Part shown: piece after piece, positions 29,925-60,633 of the stretch
Position numbering within the stretch: the first letter of the stretch is position 1
Layout: the number at the start of each line of letters is the position of its first letter
Source: Escherichia coli
Lineage (GTDB): Bacteria > Pseudomonadota > Gammaproteobacteria > Enterobacterales > Enterobacteriaceae
DNA length: 64,000 nt
Assembly: GCF_016026235.1 (NCBI RefSeq)
Contig: NZ_CP065613.1
Strand: one strand, 5' to 3'
The notes under the pieces: model-generated
The model's database searches: none
Seen by the model: the letters and a program-made list of their open reading frames with translations, nothing else
What the model was told of the DNA's origin: nothing
Position numbers and translations under genes: made by a program

Positions 29925-31136
29925 GTGAAAAACAGAACCCTGGGAAGTGTTTTTATCGTGGCGGGAACCACAATTGGCGCAGGCATGCTGGCAATGCCGC
30001 TGGCTGCGGCCGGTGTTGGTTTTAGCGTTACGTTAATCTTGTTGATTGGGCTTTGGGCGTTGATGTGCTACACGGCGCTATTACTGCTGGAGGTGTACCA
30101 GCATGTTCCGGCAGATACCGGTCTGGGCACGCTGGCAAAACGCTATCTGGGACGCTACGGTCAATGGCTGACGGGCTTCAGTATGATGTTCTTAATGTAT
30201 GCTCTGACTGCGGCATACATCAGCGGTGCCGGTGAATTGTTGGCCTCCAGCATCAGCGACTGGACAGGTATTTCAATGTCGGCAACCGCTGGCGTGCTGT
30301 TGTTCACTTTTGTTGCCGGTGGCGTGGTTTGTGTTGGAACATCGCTGGTCGATTTATTTAACCGTTTTCTGTTCAGCGCCAAAATTATTTTTCTGGTGGT
30401 GATGCTGGTATTGCTGCTACCGCATATTCACAAAGTGAATCTTTTAACCCTGCCGTTGCAACAGGGGCTGGCTCTGTCAGCAATCCCGGTGATTTTTACC
30501 TCATTTGGTTTTCACGGTAGCGTGCCGAGTATTGTCAGCTATATGGATGGCAACGTTCGTAAGCTACGCTGGGTGTTTATAACCGGTAGTGCGATCCCCC
30601 TGGTGGCATATATTTTCTGGCAGGTGGCAACGCTTGGTAGCATTGATTCAACAACCTTTATGGGATTGCTGGCTAATCATGCTGGATTAAACGGGCTGTT
30701 ACAGGCGTTACGCGAAATGGTGGCCTCTCCGCATGTTGAGCTGGCAGTGCATTTATTTGCTGATTTAGCCCTCGCCACGTCATTTCTCGGCGTTGCGTTA
30801 GGCTTATTTGATTATCTGGCTGATTTATTTCAGCGTTCAAATACCGTTGGTGGACGGTTGCAAACTGGTGCAATTACCTTTCTGCCGCCGTTGGCGTTTG
30901 CACTGTTTTATCCACGAGGATTTGTGATGGCGCTGGGTTACGCCGGTGTGGCGCTGGCGGTACTGGCATTGATTATCCCTTCGCTGTTGACCTGGCAAAG
31001 CAGAAAGCACAATCCTCAGGCGGGTTACCGGGTGAAAGGTGGTCGTCCGGCGCTGGTGGTGGTGTTTCTCTGTGGTATTGCTGTGATTGGCGTGCAATTT
31101 TTGATTGCGGCAGAGTTGTTACCAGAAGTGGGGTGA
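29925..31136 (+). CDS. tyrP: Tyrosine-specific transport protein TyrP (403 aa)
   Basis: Full-length match; GTG start codon at 29925 ([30 protein letters not shown]). Confidence 0.94.
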
Positions 31137-31197
31137 TCAGATAGCCTCAAATTCCTTATTGGGTGCCAGAATTAACGCTGACACCCAATTTGACCTC

Positions 31198-31863
31198 TTA
31201 ATGCAGGCAGCACTGCTTAAATTTCTTACCACTACCGCACGGGCAAGGATCGTTACGCCCCGGTTTCTCTTCTGCTTTGATCGGTTGCTGAACAGCTTTT
31301 TCCTGCGGATGCGCCATCCAGTACGCATGTAGATCAAGCGCCGCCAGTCGAATGGCATCTACGCTCTCTTCAAACGCTTCTGGCGACATTTTCTCTACCC
31401 GCTCGAAGTTTTCCTCAGTACCGTGCAGCGCAATCGCCTCCAGCGCTGGTTTTAACGAATCGGGCAACGTTGACCAGTCAGAAAGTGCCACGCCCCGCAT
31501 ATAGCCAAAGCACCACTCCTCAACAATCGTCAGCTCGCTGCCATCAACTTCTCGCAAGCCGAATAACGGCTCAAACTGCTCCGGGAATTCGTTCAGACGC
31601 TCTGCGGTATCGGCCATATGTTGAAAAGCCAGGTTCATAAAGCGCGTCATCTCTTTCTCTGACGCCCAGCGCGGCACATAGTCAGCCCCACCCCACACGG
31701 CAACCAGCCACTGTGCCGGTTCAATCTCTTGCGGAGAACTCAACACCGCCGTCAATAAACCGTCCAGCTCCGCCACATCAAGGATGGCGTGGTCAGTGTT
31801 GTATTTGGTCAGAATATCGTCCAGCCATTCCAACTCACTTTCGTTTAACGGTCCCGTTTTCAT
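31198..31863 (-). CDS. yecA: UPF0149/SEC-C-motif protein YecA (221 aa)
   Basis: Full-length match; C-terminal metal-binding SEC-C motif [20 protein letters not shown]. Confidence 0.93.
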
Positions 31864-32002
31864 ACGCTTTTCCTTGTGGATCTCAACTCGCCAGCACCTA
31901 TCTTACATGCCGGTCCGTATCAGAGATACTTTTTGAGTGGCTTTGCCGGTGATTAAAAATTAAGGAGGGTGTAACGACAAGTTGCAGGCACAAAAAAACC
32001 AC

Positions 32003-32114
32003 CCGAAGGTGGTTTCACGACACTGCTTATTGCTTTGATTTTATTCTTATCTTTCCCATGGTACCCGGAGCGGGACTTGAACCCGCACAGCGCGAACGCC
32101 GAGGGATTTTAAAT
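32003..32114. repeat. Left direct repeat of the island: terminator-like hairpin plus 56 nt copy of the tRNA-Leu 3' end (32059..32114), att-like
   Basis: About 95% identical to 60482..60601 (the 3' part of intact leuZ and its downstream terminator); tRNA identity is lost after ...GAGGGATTTTAAAT at 32114. Confidence 0.85.
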
Positions 32115-32379
32115 TCTACGTAGGATCAATGAGTTACATAGCAGTGCATTGTGAAACTTTGCTGACGTTGAATGGTCGTCTTTGCAACCACTGGCAGAAA
32201 ATGGATAGCCGTAGATTGCGTTGAGCACAGAAACAGCACAGGGTAATCGTCTACCTGGTCCTGTAAAGGAGGTTGTTGCCACACAAGCTAAAGCGCTTGA
32301 CCTGCCCCCAGTATTCGGTACAACTGTCAGTTAGTAATGGACTGACCCCGTTACTTTATTCGTACCCCTTATAATGGGG

Positions 32380-32576
32380 TGTTAGCCAGCCAGACCCGGC
32401 ATGATTACTGCCCCCAGTCGTCCATGATCCGGGGGGTGATGTCACCGGGTCTGGTGGGGCGCTGGTAACCGCTAATAGGGGTCAGGTCAGGCACTTTTGC
32501 CGGGACCGTCTGTAACGTGGATGCCGGTACCTGCTCCCCGTGGTTATCTGGTTAACCCATATACAAGGGAGACAGA
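32380..32576 (+). ncRNA. Candidate structured non-coding RNA upstream of the IS110-family recombinase (possible bridge RNA)
   Basis: GC-rich non-coding stretch with a long inverted repeat (CCAGACCCGG ... CCGGGTCTGG) immediately 5' of the recombinase; bridge RNAs are encoded in the 5' non-coding end in the IS110 subgroup (established for IS621). Inference only. Confidence 0.25.
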
Positions 32577-33773
32577 ATGACCGAATCCAGCGATTACGAA
32601 TCCGTCCAGGTCTTTATCGGCGTTGATGTCGGTAAAGATACGCATCACGCTGTTGCCATTAATCGTTCAGGTAAACGCCTGTTCGATAAAGCATTACCCA
32701 ACGACGAAAACAAACTCAGGTCGCTAATATCTGACCTGAAACAACATGGTCAGATACTGCTGGTTGTTGATCAGCCAGCTACCATCGGTGCGTTACCTGT
32801 CGCCGTTGCCCGCTCAGAAGGAGTCCTTGTCGGATACCTCCCTGGACTGGCCATGCGCCGCATAGCCGACTTACACGCCGGTGAAGCTAAAACTGATGCT
32901 CGTGACGCTGCCATCATTGCCGAAGCTGCCCGTACCCTGCCTCACGCGCTACGCACGCTGAAACTGGCTGACGAGCAAATCGCCGAACTCTCCATGCTCT
33001 GCGGCTTCGATGATGATCTTGCCGCACAGACAACGCAGGCCAGCAACCGTATCCGCGGCCTTCTGACCCAGATACATCCGGCACTGGAGCGCGTTCTCGG
33101 TCCGAGACTTGAGCACCCGGCGGTACTCGATCTTCTCCAGCGATATCCCTCACCAGAAAAACTCGCTTCGCTGGGTGAGAAGAAGCTGGCAGCCCAGCTC
33201 TGCAAACTTGCGCCTCGTCTGGGTAAACGCCTTGCAGCAGACATAGCTCAGGCACTGGCCGAACAAACCGTCGTCGTTCCCGGCACGAATGCCGCTGCCG
33301 TAGTACTGCCACGTCTGGCACTCCAGCTCATCACGCTGCGTAAGCAAAGAGACGAGGTGGCGCTTGAGGTAGAACAGCGAGTTCTTGCTCACCCTCTTTA
33401 CCCGGTCCTGACCAGTATGCCCGGAGTCGGTGTCAGGACCGCAGCCAGACTCCTCACCGAGGTCGCCTGCCGCGCCTTCGCCTCTGCCGCACATCTCGCT
33501 GCTTATGCTGGCCTTGCGCCGGTAACTCGGCGATCCGGCTCGTCAATACGCGGTGAGCATCCCTCGCGACGGGGTAATAAAGCTCTCAAACGGGCGTTGT
33601 TCCTGTCGGCCTTCGCCGCGCTCAGGGATCCGCTCTCCAGGGCTTACTACACCCGCAAAATGAGTCAGGGAAAACGACACAATCAGGCGCTTATCGCCCT
33701 GGCGAGACGACGCTGCGACGTTCTGTTCGCCATGATGCGCGACGGGACTTTTTATACCCCGCAGGGGTCATAA
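32577..33773 (+). CDS. IS110-family transposase/recombinase (398 aa)
   Basis: N-terminal RuvC-like DEDD motif VFIGVDVGKDTHHAVAIN and C-terminal Transposase_20-type block PGVGVRTAARLL; RBS AAGGGAGA upstream of the ATG. Confidence 0.85.
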   Translation: MTESSDYESVQVFIGVDVGKDTHHAVAINRSGKRLFDKALPNDENKLRSLISDLKQHGQILLVVDQPATIGALPVAVARSEGVLVGYLPGLAMRRIADLHAGEAKTDARDAAIIAEAARTLPHALRTLKLADEQIAELSMLCGFDDDLAAQTTQASNRIRGLLTQIHPALERVLGPRLEHPAVLDLLQRYPSPEKLASLGEKKLAAQLCKLAPRLGKRLAADIAQALAEQTVVVPGTNAAAVVLPRLALQLITLRKQRDEVALEVEQRVLAHPLYPVLTSMPGVGVRTAARLLTEVACRAFASAAHLAAYAGLAPVTRRSGSSIRGEHPSRRGNKALKRALFLSAFAALRDPLSRAYYTRKMSQGKRHNQALIALARRRCDVLFAMMRDGTFYTPQGS

Positions 33774-33869
33774 CATGCTTGACAACTTAATAGGGGCACC
33801 CCCCGGTAGACGATCCTGCCCTATAGTTGGACTGACCCCACCCCGGTAGACGATCCTGCCCTATAGTTT

Positions 33870-34053
33870 GAGTATAGGGGGAGCATATGGGCACACCACG
33901 GTCAATCAACCAATGACTGAGCAAATCAGGCTCAACATTACGGTTGTTAGGACGCGTGTGCCAATCGCCTAGATAACGATAGCCCAATTCCTCAATAAAA
34001 AACCTGACTACGCGCTGTTGAGTTGCGCGTTCACGTTGTCCGACAGTTGTCAC
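33870..34053 (-). pseudogene. 5' remnant of a gene truncated by the IS110-family element (resembles an N-terminus of a restriction-enzyme or helicase subunit)
   Basis: ORF 33787..34053 begins MTTVGQRERATQQRVVRFFIEELGYRYLGDWHTRPNNRNVEPDLL and then reads into the repeat-containing end of the IS; it lies 23 nt downstream of the helicase gene stop, so it was the next gene in that operon. Homology assignment is weak. Confidence 0.3.
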
Positions 34054-36396
34054 TGTTCTTATTACCTTTAACTAATTATGCCAATTCAGACTCAAACGCT
34101 GCATCATTCGCTTCAGCCTCTGCGCCATCAATTAATGCCAAGACTCGGTCAAGAAAGCGTTGCGCTTCGTATACATCTGTTGCTTGCCGCAGATAATGAG
34201 GTATTCGTTCAACAAACTCGGAACGTGATAAAGGCTGATGTTCCAGCAAAGCCTCAAGCATTGCGGGCCGCAACAAACGACGATCAGCATCAACATTAGG
34301 AAGCTCAACCTCAATGACATGTGTGGCAAAATACTTAAGTTGCTCCTTAAGCCCCAAATTGGGCATAAGAGAATCAATTGAGTCAGACGCCACTTCAGCG
34401 CTTGACTCAATCGTTTCGACATATTCACAGGAAGGTACAACAACGTCTGGAGCCAATGTTTTAAGCTCATGGAGTTTACGGATAATCGGAGATAGAACCT
34501 CATCAGGATTACTGAACCAATCAGTGGACCAAATGCGGCTAATTCTCCAACCCAAACGCTCCAGAACCTCTTGACGCAAACGGTCACGATCACGAGCAGA
34601 TTTAGCTGAGTGATAAGCCGCACCATCACACTCTATGCCCATTAAGTAACGGCCAGGACAACCTGGATCTTTCACAGCTAGATCAATAAAGAATCCTGCA
34701 ACCCCTACCTGAGGTTCACACTCAAACCCAGCGTGATTGAGTGCTTCCATTACAGCAACCTCAAAGTCACTATCTGGAGCCCTGCCGGTATGCGTTGTGA
34801 GGGAATCTAGTTTGCCACTTTCGGCAAACTGTAAAAAACCTTTCAACGAAATAACACCAAGTTTACTGGTTTCACTCGTCAATACATCTTCAGAACGCAT
34901 TGAACTAAACACATGCATCCGTTTTTTTGATCGAGTGAAAAGCACATTCAAGCGACGCCAGCCAACATCGGAATTGATAGGTCCAAAGCGTTGATAAACC
35001 TTTCCACCATGCTCAGAAGGTCCATAGGTAAAGGAAATAAAGATTACATCACGCTCATCCCCTTGAACGTTCTCAAGGTTTTTCACAAAAAGTGGCTCTT
35101 CCATGGCATATAAGCCATCGATTGCATCGTTAAATTCAGGGCGATTTCGGCGCAATTCATCGATAGCGCGCTCAATTTGATCGCGTTGCTTGGAACTCAT
35201 GGCCACTACCCCGAGTGACTCACCCGGCCGGTGTTGCGCATGATGAAGTACGGCCTCAGCAACTGCTTGGGCTTCTTCAATATTGTGTTGATTGGAGAAC
35301 CGACCTTTTGACACATAGGTAAATTTAATCCCATACTCTGGAGACTCAGCATTTGGGGAAGGGAATATCACCAAATCACTGTTATAAAAATGGCGGTTAG
35401 AGTATGCAATCAACTTTTCATGTCGTGAACGATAGTGCCAACGCAAACGTCTCATAGGAAACAGTGGCAAAGCAGCATCCAAAATGCTGTCAGTATCACT
35501 TAAAGCCGCGGCATCATCGTCATCTTCTCCGTCGGCACTTCGATCAAAGAAACTGGTTGGTGGTAGCTGTTTCGGGTCACCAACGACCACTAGTTGCTTG
35601 CCCCTCGCGATGACACCCAATGCATCCTCTGGCTTCACCTGAGACGCTTCGTCCATCACCACCAGATCAAATTCCATTCGTCCAGGTTCTAGGTAATGAG
35701 CTGCTGACATTGGCCCCATCATGAAACAAGGTTTAATTGCAACCAGCGCATTACATGCACGGTTAACCAATTGCCTAATTGGAATATGTCTGGTTTTTTT
35801 ACCCAACTCATTTTTGATCAAAGCTAGTTCTGTATATTCACTTTTCTTACCACCAGAATTCCCTTCTGGTATATTTCGGTAAGCAATTTTTGCTGCAATC
35901 CGCTGACGTTGTAATTCAATCAGTTTTTTGTCGTAATCTTTAAATGACTTCTGCAAAGCATTGCGCTGTGAGCCGGAAACTCTCATCAATTCAGGGTGGA
36001 TGTGAATAACCTCCCGCGCCAGCTGGTCATGAATTGCTAATGCTAAACCCAATTCAACTTTTTCAATCGGGAGCGAGCCCGCAAGTACAGCACTCCAGAT
36101 TCGCTGCAATCCATTTTCATGCATCTGCTCGTAACAACGAATAAAGTTAACCCACCCGTTCAACCAACGGGGTTGCTGTATTGCTCTTTCGTTGCGCTCG
36201 ATTAATGTATTAAGAGAACCATCAGTCGACTTGAGCCACTGACTCCGCTCTAACTTTGTTTCTAGCGCATATAACTCAGCATTTTTAATCTGTTCATTCC
36301 ATTTCGAAACTATTTCCCCACCATCACGACATAGTAAATCGGGTGATGCTGCCAACTTACTGATTTAGTGTATGATGGTGTTTTTGAGGTGCTCCA

Positions 36397-58286: not shown

Positions 58287-59516
58287 TCACATCTGCTTCG
58301 TAGCCGCAGTATTCAGAAGCAGGTCAGTCACTCCCTGCCCTGTCTGACGCATACGTTCCGGTGTTAATTTCGCGTAACGTTCTGTACTCTGAATACTGGC
58401 ATGCGCCAGTTGGGCTTTAACGTCATACAGGCTGAATTGACCACTCGAAACCAGTAAAGAGGCAACAGAATGACGTGTGGTGTGAAAACAGACTTCATTC
58501 TTGTCTATACCGCACTGTGCCAGTATTTTTTCATATGCCCATCGGGGTTCCGATATCGGTTTTCCATTATCCTTAATGGCGAACAGATACGGATTACTGC
58601 CAACTCGTGGGATAGCATCAATAATCGATAATGCGGCATCGCTTAGATATACCGTCCGACTGCGACCATTTTTTGTATAAGGAATGAACAGAGTACGATT
58701 GGCCCGGTCGATATGTTCATGCCTGACATTAAGCATTTCTGATTTGCGTGTACCGGTTAACAACAACATGGCTATCAATCCCCCGGCAGCTTTGTTGGGA
58801 TATTGGGTAGCAGCGTCAAGAATGCGCCTGATCTCATCAGCATCAAAAAAGCGCGTCCGCTGATTATTCTCTTTCAGTAAAGGGATCTTATCGGCTTCAT
58901 TCTTTTCCAGCACATCCTGTCGCAACGCATAACGCCCCATCGTTTTCAGAATAGCAAGGGCTCTGTTACAGGTAGACGGCGCATATTGCTGCCCGTGAAT
59001 ACGCCCCTCCAGCATGTCAAACAGCACCTGTTGTATCTCTCTGGCCCTGAGATCGCAGTAACGTATCTTTCCCAGACGAGGTTCAATGTATTGCGTGAAA
59101 CGCTGAACATCCTTATCCCAGGACTTTTTATGGCGTTTGATGAACGGAACATAGGTCTGGTGAAAAAACTCACTAAGTGTTGGCATCGCACGATAATTAT
59201 CGCGTTCTGCTTTAGGGTCATTTCCCAGTGCAATCGCCTCCTTATGACGGCGAGCTATCTGGCGAGCTGTCCCCACATCAATTTCAGGGAATCTGCCAAT
59301 ACTGATACTTTTTTTGGTACCGTGGAATGTGTAGCGCAGGAGGAAACGTTTGTTACCCGTTCGACCTGAGAGACATTTGAGGCCAATAACTTCGGTATCA
59401 GATACCTCAAGCTCTGTAGATCTGGTATCTGTGTTTGCCGGAAGGGCTTTGATGGATGAATTGGTGAATCGGAAGGATTTTTGCATATTTATCCTCATGT
59501 ATCTGATTGATATCAT
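58287..59516 (-). CDS. int: Tyrosine recombinase / P4-type integrase (about 400 aa; start may be a downstream Met)
   Basis: Arm-type N-terminus (FRFTNSSIKALP), catalytic motifs (LLLTGTRKSEMLNVRHEHI, HTTRHSVASLL, STERYAKL); located close to the tRNA-Leu end of the island. Confidence 0.85.
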   Translation of the reverse strand: MISIRYMRINMQKSFRFTNSSIKALPANTDTRSTELEVSDTEVIGLKCLSGRTGNKRFLLRYTFHGTKKSISIGRFPEIDVGTARQIARRHKEAIALGNDPKAERDNYRAMPTLSEFFHQTYVPFIKRHKKSWDKDVQRFTQYIEPRLGKIRYCDLRAREIQQVLFDMLEGRIHGQQYAPSTCNRALAILKTMGRYALRQDVLEKNEADKIPLLKENNQRTRFFDADEIRRILDAATQYPNKAAGGLIAMLLLTGTRKSEMLNVRHEHIDRANRTLFIPYTKNGRSRTVYLSDAALSIIDAIPRVGSNPYLFAIKDNGKPISEPRWAYEKILAQCGIDKNEVCFHTTRHSVASLLVSSGQFSLYDVKAQLAHASIQSTERYAKLTPERMRQTGQGVTDLLLNTAATKQM

Positions 59517-60481: not shown

Positions 60482-60601
60482 AAAAAAACCACCCGGAGGT
60501 GGTTTCACGACACTGCTTATTGCTTTGATTATTCTTGTCTTTCCCATGGTACCCGGAGCGGGACTTGAACCCGCACAGCGCGAACGCCGAGGGATTTTAA
60601 A
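60482..60601. repeat. Right direct repeat of the island (leuZ 3' part plus downstream terminator hairpin)
   Basis: About 95% identical to 32003..32114. Confidence 0.85.
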
Positions 60602-60633
60602 TCCCTTGTGTCTACCGATTCCACCATCCGGGC
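60547..60633 (-). tRNA. leuZ: tRNA-Leu (anticodon UAA)
   Basis: Reverse complement reads GCCCGGATGGTGGAATCGGTAGACACAAGGGATTTAAAATCCCTCGGCGTTCGCGCTGTGCGGGTTCAAGTCCCGCTCCGGGTACCA. Confidence 0.95.

What the first reader, a model, noticed from the sequence alone, without database searches (positions are those of the whole stretch)
32115..33870. IS110-family element at the island edge with a structured 5' non-coding region (possible bridge RNA) and tandem 27 bp repeats at its 3' side
The IS110-type DEDD recombinase is preceded by about 250-450 bp of GC-rich non-coding DNA with long inverted repeats, and followed by two tandem copies of CCCCGGTAGACGATCCTGCCCTATAGTT (about 33801..33868). In the IS110 subgroup the 5' non-coding end encodes the bridge RNA that programs target and donor recognition (established for IS621); whether this element has the same arrangement is untested. 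Its insertion appears to have truncated a neighbouring gene, and it sits directly against the island's att-like repeat.
Basis: partly seen in the sequence, partly recalled or inferred. Interest (0 to 1): 0.55.

Follow-up and report, generated by a model that had tools for sequence, protein, structure and literature searches.

The report
Known ISEc20 with bridge RNA
This is an intact copy of the catalogued E. coli insertion sequence ISEc20, whose 5' non-coding end does carry the conserved two-loop guide ("bridge") RNA typical of its family, while the repeats beside it belong to the leftover end of a different, older insertion sequence; it is an ordinary member of a known kind.

Summary
The element is ISEc20 (IS110 family, IS110 group). 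Its body is 32350-33798, plus a duplicated 2-nt CC core. More than 1,100 complete E. coli genomes carry full copies.

The 227-nt left end has a 5' hairpin and two stem-loops with large internal loops. Across 41 orthologues from several phyla, 97% of cells pair and 17 pairs show compensatory changes. A covariance model built without this sequence hits 32383-32542 at 159 bits.

The loops hold segments that match the element's own ends and its poly-C insertion sites. The donor guide covaries with the right end in 58 of 60 copies.

This was already predicted: Durrant et al. 2024, Supplementary Table 5, lists ISEc20/ISSfl4 as "LE".

The surrounding claims are wrong:
- Only 227 nt of the upstream DNA belongs to the IS.
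- The "27-bp repeats" are 40-bp tandem copies of the left inverted repeat of an IS3-family element. They also occur in IS-free genomes.
- The neighbouring ORF is cut by that IS3 remnant, not by ISEc20.
- The att repeat lies 235 bp away.

One oddity remains. The occupied repeat unit lacks one A, which turns CCCCACCCC into an uninterrupted C-run.

The parts
32050..32114 (-). Context only: 65-bp direct repeat of the 3' part of tRNA-Leu(taa), which marks the distal island boundary. It is 235 bp from the IS body.
   Evidence: Exact 65-nt match to 60538-60602. The full tRNA lies at 60547-60633(-).
32338..32349 (+). Left part of IS3-family IRL unit 1 (TGGACTGACCCC). It serves as the left target flank, and its last CC (32348-32349) is the left copy of the core.
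   Evidence: Same 12-mer at 33828-33839. It is the IRL of the complete IS3-family element in L089.
32350..33798 (+). ISEc20 body (GTTAC...AATAGGGGCA), 1449 bp. It has no terminal inverted repeats.
   Evidence: Ends defined from 5+10 other copies. PGAP names the gene 'IS110-like element ISEc20 family transposase'. There are 3 to 7 differences from other E. coli copies.
32350..32576 (+). Left end (LE), 227 nt non-coding. It includes the -10-like TACTTT at 32352-32357.
   Evidence: Sequence. LE/RE lengths of 227 versus 25 nt are typical of the IS110 group (PMC11208160).
32365..32379 (+). 5' hairpin CCCC-TTATAAT-GGGG.
   Evidence: Orthologues keep a hairpin here with different stems, e.g. CCTCG/CGAGG and ACCTTGA/TCAAGGT.
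32383..32542 (+). Predicted bridge RNA core (target-binding plus donor-binding stem-loops).
   Evidence: Model R1, built from 39 orthologues without this sequence, gives 158.8 bits, E=5.9e-33, full length. Pair counts: 97.1% paired, 17 compensatory pairs, 0/500 shuffles.
32389..32455 (+). Target-binding stem-loop: basal stem 32389-32405/32441-32455 and distal hairpin 32417-32428.
   Evidence: Helix 1 has 15 pairs, 7 with changes on both sides, 98.5% paired. Coordinates.
32407..32415 (+). Left target guide ACUGCCCCC, identical to the left target plus core.
   Evidence: Matches 9/9 at L002, 8/9 at L004 and 8/9 here (ACTGACCCC).
32427..32438 (+). Right target guide AUCCGGGGGG plus UG (candidate handshake guide). 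It is the reverse complement of CC+CCCCGG(AT), and GGGGUG is the reverse complement of CACCCC at the RE junction.
   Evidence: The right flank here, CCCCCCGG, matches 8/8. The handshake analogy is drawn from IS621 (PMC11208158) and is an inference.
32457..32538 (+). Donor-binding stem-loop: basal stem 32457-32471/32525-32538 and distal stem 32485-32491/32500-32507.
   Evidence: Helices 3-6 have 10 pairs with changes on both sides. Coordinates.
32474..32481 (+). Left donor guide AAUAGGGG, identical to the RE end AATAGGGG(CA).
   Evidence: Guide and RE share the same variant in 58 of 60 copies: GGGG/GGGG 43, GGGA/GGGA 10, GAGG/GAGG 5.
32512..32520 (+). Right donor guide GUAACG(U)GG, the reverse complement of CC+GTTAC at the LE start.
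   Evidence: Invariant in 41 orthologues, together with the invariant LE start GTTAC.
32577..33773 (+). Recombinase gene, 398 aa: RuvC-like domain (D17, D65, D107, D110) and Tnp domain (S320).
   Evidence: Pfam. Alignment to the IS621 chain 8wt6_A, E=1.2e-14, with KTDARDA/KTDTVDA and RRSGSS/YESGSS aligned.
33774..33798 (+). Right end (RE), 25 nt, with a conserved -35-like TTGACA at 33779-33784 and the donor sequence AATAGGGGCA at 33789-33798.
   Evidence: CTTGAC[AG]...ATAGGGGCA is conserved in about 60 copies.
33799..33800 (+). Right copy of the CC core. Its position within the C-run 33799-33804 is ambiguous.
   Evidence: Empty sites for two other copies match the joined flanks 500/500 with exactly two fewer C.
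33801..33827 (+). Right part of IS3-family IRL unit 1 (CCCCGGTAGACGATCCTGCCCTATAGT). This is the first '27-bp repeat'.
33828..33867 (+). IS3-family IRL unit 2, unoccupied (TGGACTGACCCCACCCCGG...TATAGT). It contains the second '27-bp repeat'.
   Evidence: Both units are present without ISEc20 in L006. L007 and L088 have one unit and L089 has three.
33868..33900 (+). Remainder of the IS3-family left-end remnant, including the orfA start ATG at 33887. It ends in the 8-bp microhomology ACACCACG (33893-33900), where the IS3 body was deleted.
   Evidence: Comparison with the complete element in L089 and the partial copy in L088.

Best explanation
The feature is an intact copy of ISEc20, an IS110-group insertion sequence.

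Shown:
- The element consists of a 1449-bp body plus a duplicated CC core.
- It encodes a DEDD/Ser recombinase.
- Its 227-nt left end holds a conserved RNA made of a 5' hairpin, a target-binding stem-loop and a donor-binding stem-loop.
- The internal loops contain segments identical or complementary to the element's own ends (AAUAGGGG = right end; GUAACG = complement of the left end).
- They also contain segments matching its insertion sites (ACUGCCCCC = left flank plus core; CCGGGGGG = complement of core plus right flank).

Inferred by analogy with IS621:
- The excised circle joins the right-end TTGACA to the left-end TACTTT, 18 nt apart, and so forms a promoter that transcribes this RNA.
- Two recombinase dimers bound to the two loops pair the circle junction with a (C)TG-C8-10 target and exchange strands at the CC core through a Holliday junction.

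Here the target was the poly-C stretch inside the first of two tandem 40-bp copies of the left inverted repeat of a decayed IS3-family element at the edge of a tRNA-Leu island. The flanking 'tandem repeats' are that IS3 remnant and are not part of ISEc20.
For: - Identity and ends.
- 2-nt core: joined flanks of two other copies match uninterrupted alleles 500/500 with two fewer C.
- Domains and catalytic motifs.
- RNA structure: RNAalifold gives 17 compensatory pairs. The curated structure is 97.1% paired against 28-55% when slid, with 114 compensated cells against 36.7 expected and 0/500 shuffles.
- Independent covariance model: 158.8 bits, E=6e-33, the only strong hit in 64 kb.
- Donor guide and right end: the three variants match in 58/60 copies.
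- Target: 12 distinct ISEc20 sites all have C7-C10 runs, G precedes the run in 10/12 and TG in 7/12.
- Prior prediction: the cluster ISEc20;ISSfl4 is listed as 'LE', 'IS110' in Supplementary Table 5 of PMC11208160.
- Repeats are IS3 IRL copies that exist without ISEc20.
Against: - There are no expression data. No sigma-70 consensus promoter lies upstream of the RNA in the integrated copy, and the junction -10 is weak (TACTTT, 3/6).
- Rfam 15 gives no hit.
- Across the family, the four variable bases of the left target guide match the left flank only weakly: 79/192 against 67.8 +/- 5.0, p=0.016 when anchored on the C-run, and p=0.32 when anchored on the junction. The two bases after the C-run show no signal (p=0.55). 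Target recognition beyond the C/G runs is therefore not demonstrated.
- The C5 and G6 guide runs are invariant, so they give no covariation evidence, and they could pair with each other.
- The insertion is not a clean insertion into the known empty allele, because one A is missing.
Confidence: 0.88

Rival explanations
1. The structured left end is only a cis-regulatory leader of the recombinase mRNA, controlling translation or stability. It is conserved for that reason and does not guide DNA recognition.
For: The structure lies directly upstream of the start codon, with an RBS-like GGGAG at about 32567. The guide-target signal outside the C/G runs is weak. No expression or binding data exist.
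Against: The loop segment ATAGGGG / ATAGGGA / ATAGAGG changes in step with the right end, about 1.3 kb away, in 58/60 copies. A leader function does not predict this. The loops also carry the complement of the left terminus and of the insertion-site C-run. The architecture equals that of IS621, where guiding is experimentally shown (PMC11208160, PMC11208158).
Confidence: 0.06
2. The tandem repeats on the 3' side were made by or for ISEc20, as a target duplication, an excision footprint, or a 3' guide RNA of the IS1111 kind.
For: The first repeat starts exactly at the IS end. The spacer GGACTGACCCC repeats the left flank. CCCCACCCC superficially resembles a joined LE/RE scar.
Against: One, two or three identical units occur at the same locus in genomes without ISEc20, and one unit occurs at another locus as the end of an IS3-family element. 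Clean ISEc20 insertions duplicate only CC. The right end is only 25 nt long, and the covariance-model hit is in the left end.
Confidence: 0.03
3. The copy is a dead relic. The RNA and protein are recognisable but the element no longer moves.
For: A single copy in this window. There are three substitutions relative to the common E. coli copy, one of them non-synonymous (G397 vs A near the C-terminus).
Against: The ORF is intact, all catalytic motifs are present, and the left end is identical to copies found at many different sites in other genomes. This insertion site is not seen in any of 5,426 complete genomes, which suggests a recent event.
Confidence: 0.1

Closest known systems
ISEc20 / ISSfl4 (ISfinder IS110 family, IS110 group; PGAP 'IS110-like element ISEc20 family transposase')
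   Same: The body is 99.5-99.8% identical to copies in more than 1,100 complete E. coli genomes, with the same ends, the same left-end RNA and the same CC core.
   Different: The insertion site is unique, inside the left inverted repeat of an IS3-family remnant. There are three substitutions in the CDS.
IS621 and its bridge RNA (Durrant et al. 2024, PMC11208160; Hiraizumi et al. 2024, PMC11208158; PDB 8wt6)
   Same: Same recombinase domain pair and catalytic motifs. The RNA is in the left end, with a 5' hairpin plus target- and donor-binding stem-loops. There is a 2-nt core, the left guides equal the top strand and the right guides are its complement. A candidate handshake dinucleotide follows the right guides, and a -35 box in the right end faces the junction.
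   Different: The proteins align significantly only over the Tnp domain (E=1e-14; 398 vs 326-328 aa). The core is CC, not CT. The target is a poly-C run rather than a REP sequence. The two target guides are complementary to each other. There is no experimental evidence for ISEc20.
ISBma3 (Burkholderia) and IS110 of Streptomyces (same recombinase cluster in Supplementary Table 1 of PMC11208160)
   Same: 79-82% protein identity. The left-end RNA aligns, with invariant guide cores, the same GTTAC...ATAGGGGCA ends and poly-C targets.
   Different: The stems carry compensatory changes, the four variable bases of the left target guide differ, and the host phyla differ.
[quoted passage not shown]
   Same: An IS110-family element sitting inside the terminal inverted repeat of another mobile element.
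   Different: In those elements the guide RNA lies in a long right end and there are subterminal inverted repeats. Here the right end is 25 nt. The IS3 repeat is only one of many poly-C sites used.

Membership tests
IS110 family, IS110 group | Recombinase with an N-terminal RuvC-like DEDD domain and a C-terminal Tnp domain carrying a conserved serine | tested here: met
   PF01548 E=1.4e-48 (full-length 1-155/155) and PF02371 E=3.7e-21. NF033542 scores 239 bits against a cut-off of 140. D17, D65 (E60 in IS621), D107, D110 and S320 align with the IS621 motifs.
IS110 family, IS110 group | No terminal inverted repeats, and insertion duplicates only a short core | tested here: met
   The ends are GTTAC... 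and ...GGGGCA. The empty-site comparison for two copies shows exactly CC added.
IS110 family, IS110 group | Long left end and short right end | tested here: met
   LE is 227 nt and RE is 25 nt. The criterion comes from PMC11208160.
Bridge RNA (IS621 type) | Conserved secondary structure with two stem-loops that each carry a large internal loop, supported by covariation | tested here: met
   35 pairs, 97.1% paired, 17 with compensatory change, 0/500 shuffles, slid controls at most 55%. An independent model scores 158.8 bits.
Bridge RNA (IS621 type) | Donor loop segments match the element's right end (same strand) and left end (complement) | tested here: met
   AAUAGGGG = RE AATAGGGG, and the variants co-vary in 58/60 copies. 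GUAACG = the reverse complement of CGTTAC at the LE start.
Bridge RNA (IS621 type) | Target loop segments match the left flank plus core (same strand) and core plus right flank (complement), and change with the target | tested here: inconclusive
   The C5 and G6 runs match every site but never vary. (C)TG before the C-run is enriched at 12 ISEc20 sites. Family-wide, the variable bases match weakly (p=0.016 or 0.32 depending on the anchor).
Bridge RNA (IS621 type) | Transcribed as a discrete RNA from a promoter rebuilt at the circle junction, and bound by the recombinase | not testable with these tools
   Only sequence is available. TTGACA is conserved in the RE and TACTTT/TACTAT lies 18 nt downstream across the junction. 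No promoter is found in the integrated copy.
Bridge RNA (IS621 type) | Match to a curated RNA family model | tested here: not met
   No Rfam 15 family reaches E<=1 in 31000-35000 apart from an unrelated terminator-like STnc130 fragment. This probably reflects missing or divergent models rather than absence of the RNA.
IS1111 group | Guide RNA in a long right end, with subterminal inverted repeats of 7-17 bp | tested here: not met
   The RE is 25 nt. The structure and the covariance-model hit lie in the LE.
IS3 family (for the flanking repeats) | Terminal inverted repeats starting with TG, and an orfA/orfB transposase with a programmed frameshift | tested here: met
   In L089 the IRL TGGACTGACCCC and the IRR GGGGTCAGTCCA flank a gene annotated 'IS3 family transposase, programmed frameshift'. 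The window keeps only the first 73 bp (33828-33900) plus one extra 40-bp unit.

The most novel reading that the evidence does not exclude
ISEc20 may have inserted into a target that carried a one-base interruption of the C-run (CCCCACCCC) and removed that base during or after RNA-guided recombination. That would mean bridge recombination can tolerate and erase a bulged target base. Related to this, the C5 and G6 target guides are mutually complementary and could close the target loop and gate activity.
Probability: 0.12. Interest if true: 0.45.

Novelty: already known. Interest (0 to 1): 0.15.

Why it matters
It matters little beyond annotation. ISEc20 is catalogued, NCBI already names its family 'RNA-guided transposase', and the 2024 bridge-RNA paper lists this IS cluster with a left-end RNA.

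This analysis adds four things:
- Explicit coordinates for the RNA and its four guide segments.
- The 2-nt CC core.
- The poly-C target rule, (C)TG-C8-10.
- A correction of the neighbourhood: the repeats and the broken ORF belong to an IS3-family remnant.

This clade could be a convenient natural test of how a bridge RNA handles homopolymer targets and self-complementary guides.

Tried and rejected
- Rfam scan of 31000-35000 at E<=1: no bridge-RNA family.
- Single-sequence folding of the left end gives z=-2.3 and pairs the two target guides with each other, so it is uninformative alone. The 230 nt of island DNA upstream shows no signal (z=+0.57).
- Promoter scan of the integrated copy: none found.
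- Literature search for 'ISEc20': no paper about its RNA.
- I tested whether the repeats are an ISEc20 footprint or duplication. This is rejected because IS-free genomes carry 1-3 units.
- I tried to explain the missing A by offset cleavage frames of the left and right target guides. Strand bookkeeping gives GGGGCACCACCCCGG or GGGGCACACCCCGG, not the observed GGGGCACCCCCCGG.
- I looked for a pre-existing C8 allele among complete E. coli genomes. None was found; the best hit is 99.7%.
- Junction-anchored test of the left-guide variable bases against flanks: no signal (p=0.32). Only the C-run-anchored test gives p=0.016.
- NCBIfam scan of the truncated 88-aa ORF: nothing significant.

Full report
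**What is there**

The ORF at 32577-33773(+) encodes a 398-aa protein. It matches Pfam DEDD_Tnp_IS110 (E=1.4e-48, full length) and Transposase_20 (E=3.7e-21). It also matches NCBIfam NF033542, 'IS110 family RNA-guided transposase', at 239 bits against a cut-off of 140.

A megablast of 32116-33900 against 5,426 complete E. coli genomes finds full copies in 1,119 genomes. They are annotated 'IS110-like element ISEc20 family transposase'. None covers more than 83% of the query, so this particular insertion site is not present in that collection.

**Boundaries**

Five other copies were aligned (L001-L005) and ten more later. They show that the shared sequence runs from GTTACTTTATTCG... to ...CTTAATAGGGGCA, which is window 32350-33798, 1449 bp. 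C-runs lie on both sides.

For two copies I joined the flanks and searched for uninterrupted alleles. The copies were in rtcB and in the penicillin acylase gene. Both joined queries match empty sites 500/500 and hold exactly two fewer C than the two junctions together. So insertion adds the body plus a CC core, as for the 2-nt core of IS621.

The left end is therefore 227 nt (32350-32576) and the right end is 25 nt (33774-33798). The 235 nt between the tRNA-Leu repeat and the IS is island DNA. It is also present in IS-free genomes and has no folding signal.

**The RNA**

A scan of one genome per species returned 80 related loci. They come from Burkholderiales (ISBma3-like), other Proteobacteria, and Microbacteriaceae/Micrococcaceae, at 72-82% protein identity.

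Their left ends align (A1, 41 sequences). Blocks of invariant sequence are separated by stems that vary. RNAalifold predicts two stem-loops with 17 compensated pairs.

I curated a structure of 35 pairs and left out the pairing between the two target guides. On that structure:
- 97.1% of cells pair, against 28-55% when the 3' partners are slid.
- 114 cells show changes on both sides, against 36.7 expected.
- No shuffle out of 500 reaches any of the five measures.

A covariance model built from 39 orthologues, without the window or its close relative L022, finds window 32383-32542(+) at 158.8 bits, E=5.9e-33, full length. The only other match is a weak reverse-strand echo of the same region.

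The layout is as described for IS621:
- a 5' hairpin at 32365-32379;
- a target-binding stem-loop at 32389-32455;
- a donor-binding stem-loop at 32457-32538.

**Guides**

In the donor loop, AAUAGGGG (32474-81) equals the right end AATAGGGG(CA). Across the family the loop and the right end share the same variant (GGGG, GGGA or GAGG) in 58 of 60 copies. GUAACG(U)GG (32512-20) is the complement of CC+GTTAC at the left end.

In the target loop, ACUGCCCCC (32407-15) equals the left flank plus core. It matches 9/9 at rtcB and 8/9 here. CCGGGGGG (32429-36) is the complement of core plus right flank, and matches 8/8 here.

The UG after the G-run is complementary to the CA that precedes the core in the right end. 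The GG after GUAACGU is complementary to the CC before the core in targets. Both are at the positions of the IS621 handshake guides. This last point is inference.

Twelve distinct ISEc20 sites all hold C7-C10 runs. G precedes the run in 10 of 12 and TG in 7 of 12.

Family-wide, the four variable bases of the left guide match the flank only weakly (p=0.016 when anchored on the C-run, p=0.32 when anchored on the junction). So the C-run is the main demonstrated determinant of the target.

**Expression**

No sigma-70 consensus promoter precedes the RNA in the integrated copy. The right end carries a family-wide TTGACA (33779-84). In a circle it would lie 18 nt upstream of TACTTT (TACTAT in ISBma3-like elements). 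This fits the junction promoter described for IS110 elements. It is inferred, not shown.

**The repeats and the neighbourhood**

IS-free alleles of this locus exist with one 40-bp unit (L007) or two (L006).

The unit TGGACTGACCCCACCCCGGTAGACGATCCTGCCCTATAGT is the start of the left inverted repeat of an IS3-family element. That element is complete at this same locus in L089, where it is preceded by three units and ends in GGGGTCAGTCCA. One unit is present at another locus in L088.

In the window, and in L006 and L007, the IS3 body is deleted between the 8-bp repeats ACACCACG. This leaves 33828-33900.

ISEc20 sits in unit 1 (32338-49 and 33801-27), and unit 2 (33828-67) is empty.

The ORF 33787-34053(-) is a chimera that runs from island DNA into this remnant. 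It is identical in IS-free genomes, so ISEc20 did not truncate it.

The island repeat is 65 bp (32050-32114 = 60538-60602) and lies 235 bp from the IS.

**Unexplained**

Every empty unit reads CCCCACCCC. The occupied unit, after removing the body and one core, reads C8.

No C8 allele was found among complete genomes. Strand-exchange bookkeeping does not produce the observed junction.

The simplest reading is a rare one-base deletion that created the uninterrupted C-run the guides require. That would also explain why unit 2 stayed empty. Loss of the base during or after recombination cannot be excluded.

**Comparison and novelty**

The protein aligns to the IS621 and ISCro4 recombinase structures only over the Tnp domain (E=1e-14 and 3e-12). 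This is a distant branch of the IS110 group, the branch of the prototype IS110 itself (Supplementary Table 1 of PMC11208160).

Supplementary Table 5 of that paper lists 'ISSfl4 | LE | IS110 | ISEc20;ISSfl4'. According to the main text, that table records the predicted location of the bridge RNA. I did not read the column headers.

The presence of a left-end bridge RNA in ISEc20 is therefore already predicted. I found no experimental work on it.

**Verdict**

The claims about the repeats, the gene truncation and the att repeat are wrong.

Noticed in passing
window 32338-32349 + 33801-33900; L006, L007, L088, L089: The first 40 bp of the left inverted repeat of an IS3-family element occur as 1, 2 or 3 perfect tandem copies at the same locus in different E. 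coli. The complete IS is present only in L089. In the window its body is deleted between the 8-bp repeats ACACCACG. The mechanism that makes tandem copies of an IS end is unknown.
   Followed up: partly
window 33799-33806 versus 33836-33846: The repeat unit occupied by ISEc20 lacks the single A that interrupts the C-run in every empty unit seen (C8 versus CCCCACCCC). No C8 allele was found in 5,426 complete E. coli genomes.
   Followed up: partly
L008-L087: ISEc20/ISBma3-like elements occur in Burkholderiales, Gammaproteobacteria MAGs, and Microbacteriaceae/Micrococcaceae. They share 72-82% protein identity, the same ends, the same left-end RNA and poly-C targets. This indicates spread across phyla.
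   Followed up: no
window 32411-32415 and 32431-32436: The C-run of the left target guide and the G-run of the right target guide are complementary. Energy-based folds therefore close the target loop. This may be a by-product of homopolymer targeting, or it may act as a gate.
   Followed up: no
window 32302-32312 and 32408-32418: CTGCCCCCAGT occurs both in island DNA 38 bp upstream of the IS and inside the target loop of the RNA (D19). It is either an unused target-like site or chance.
   Followed up: no
window 32115-60537: An island of about 28 kb is bounded by a 65-bp direct repeat of the 3' part of tRNA-Leu(taa). Its first gene after the IS remnants is hhe (a DUF4011 anti-phage protein, from the annotation of L006/L007), starting at 34076 on the minus strand. 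A 409-aa ORF at 58287-59516(-) lies near the intact tRNA and is a possible integrase, but I did not check it.
   Followed up: no
L032 (Cupriavidus laharis), right junction: The right end ...ATAGGGGCA is followed by C+GTTACTAC..., which looks like a left-end start. This may be a tandem or junction-like arrangement.
   Followed up: no
window 31987-32015: A terminator-like hairpin downstream of yecA gives a sub-threshold partial match to the Rfam family STnc130 (26 bits against a gathering score of 55). It is probably just an intrinsic terminator.
   Followed up: no
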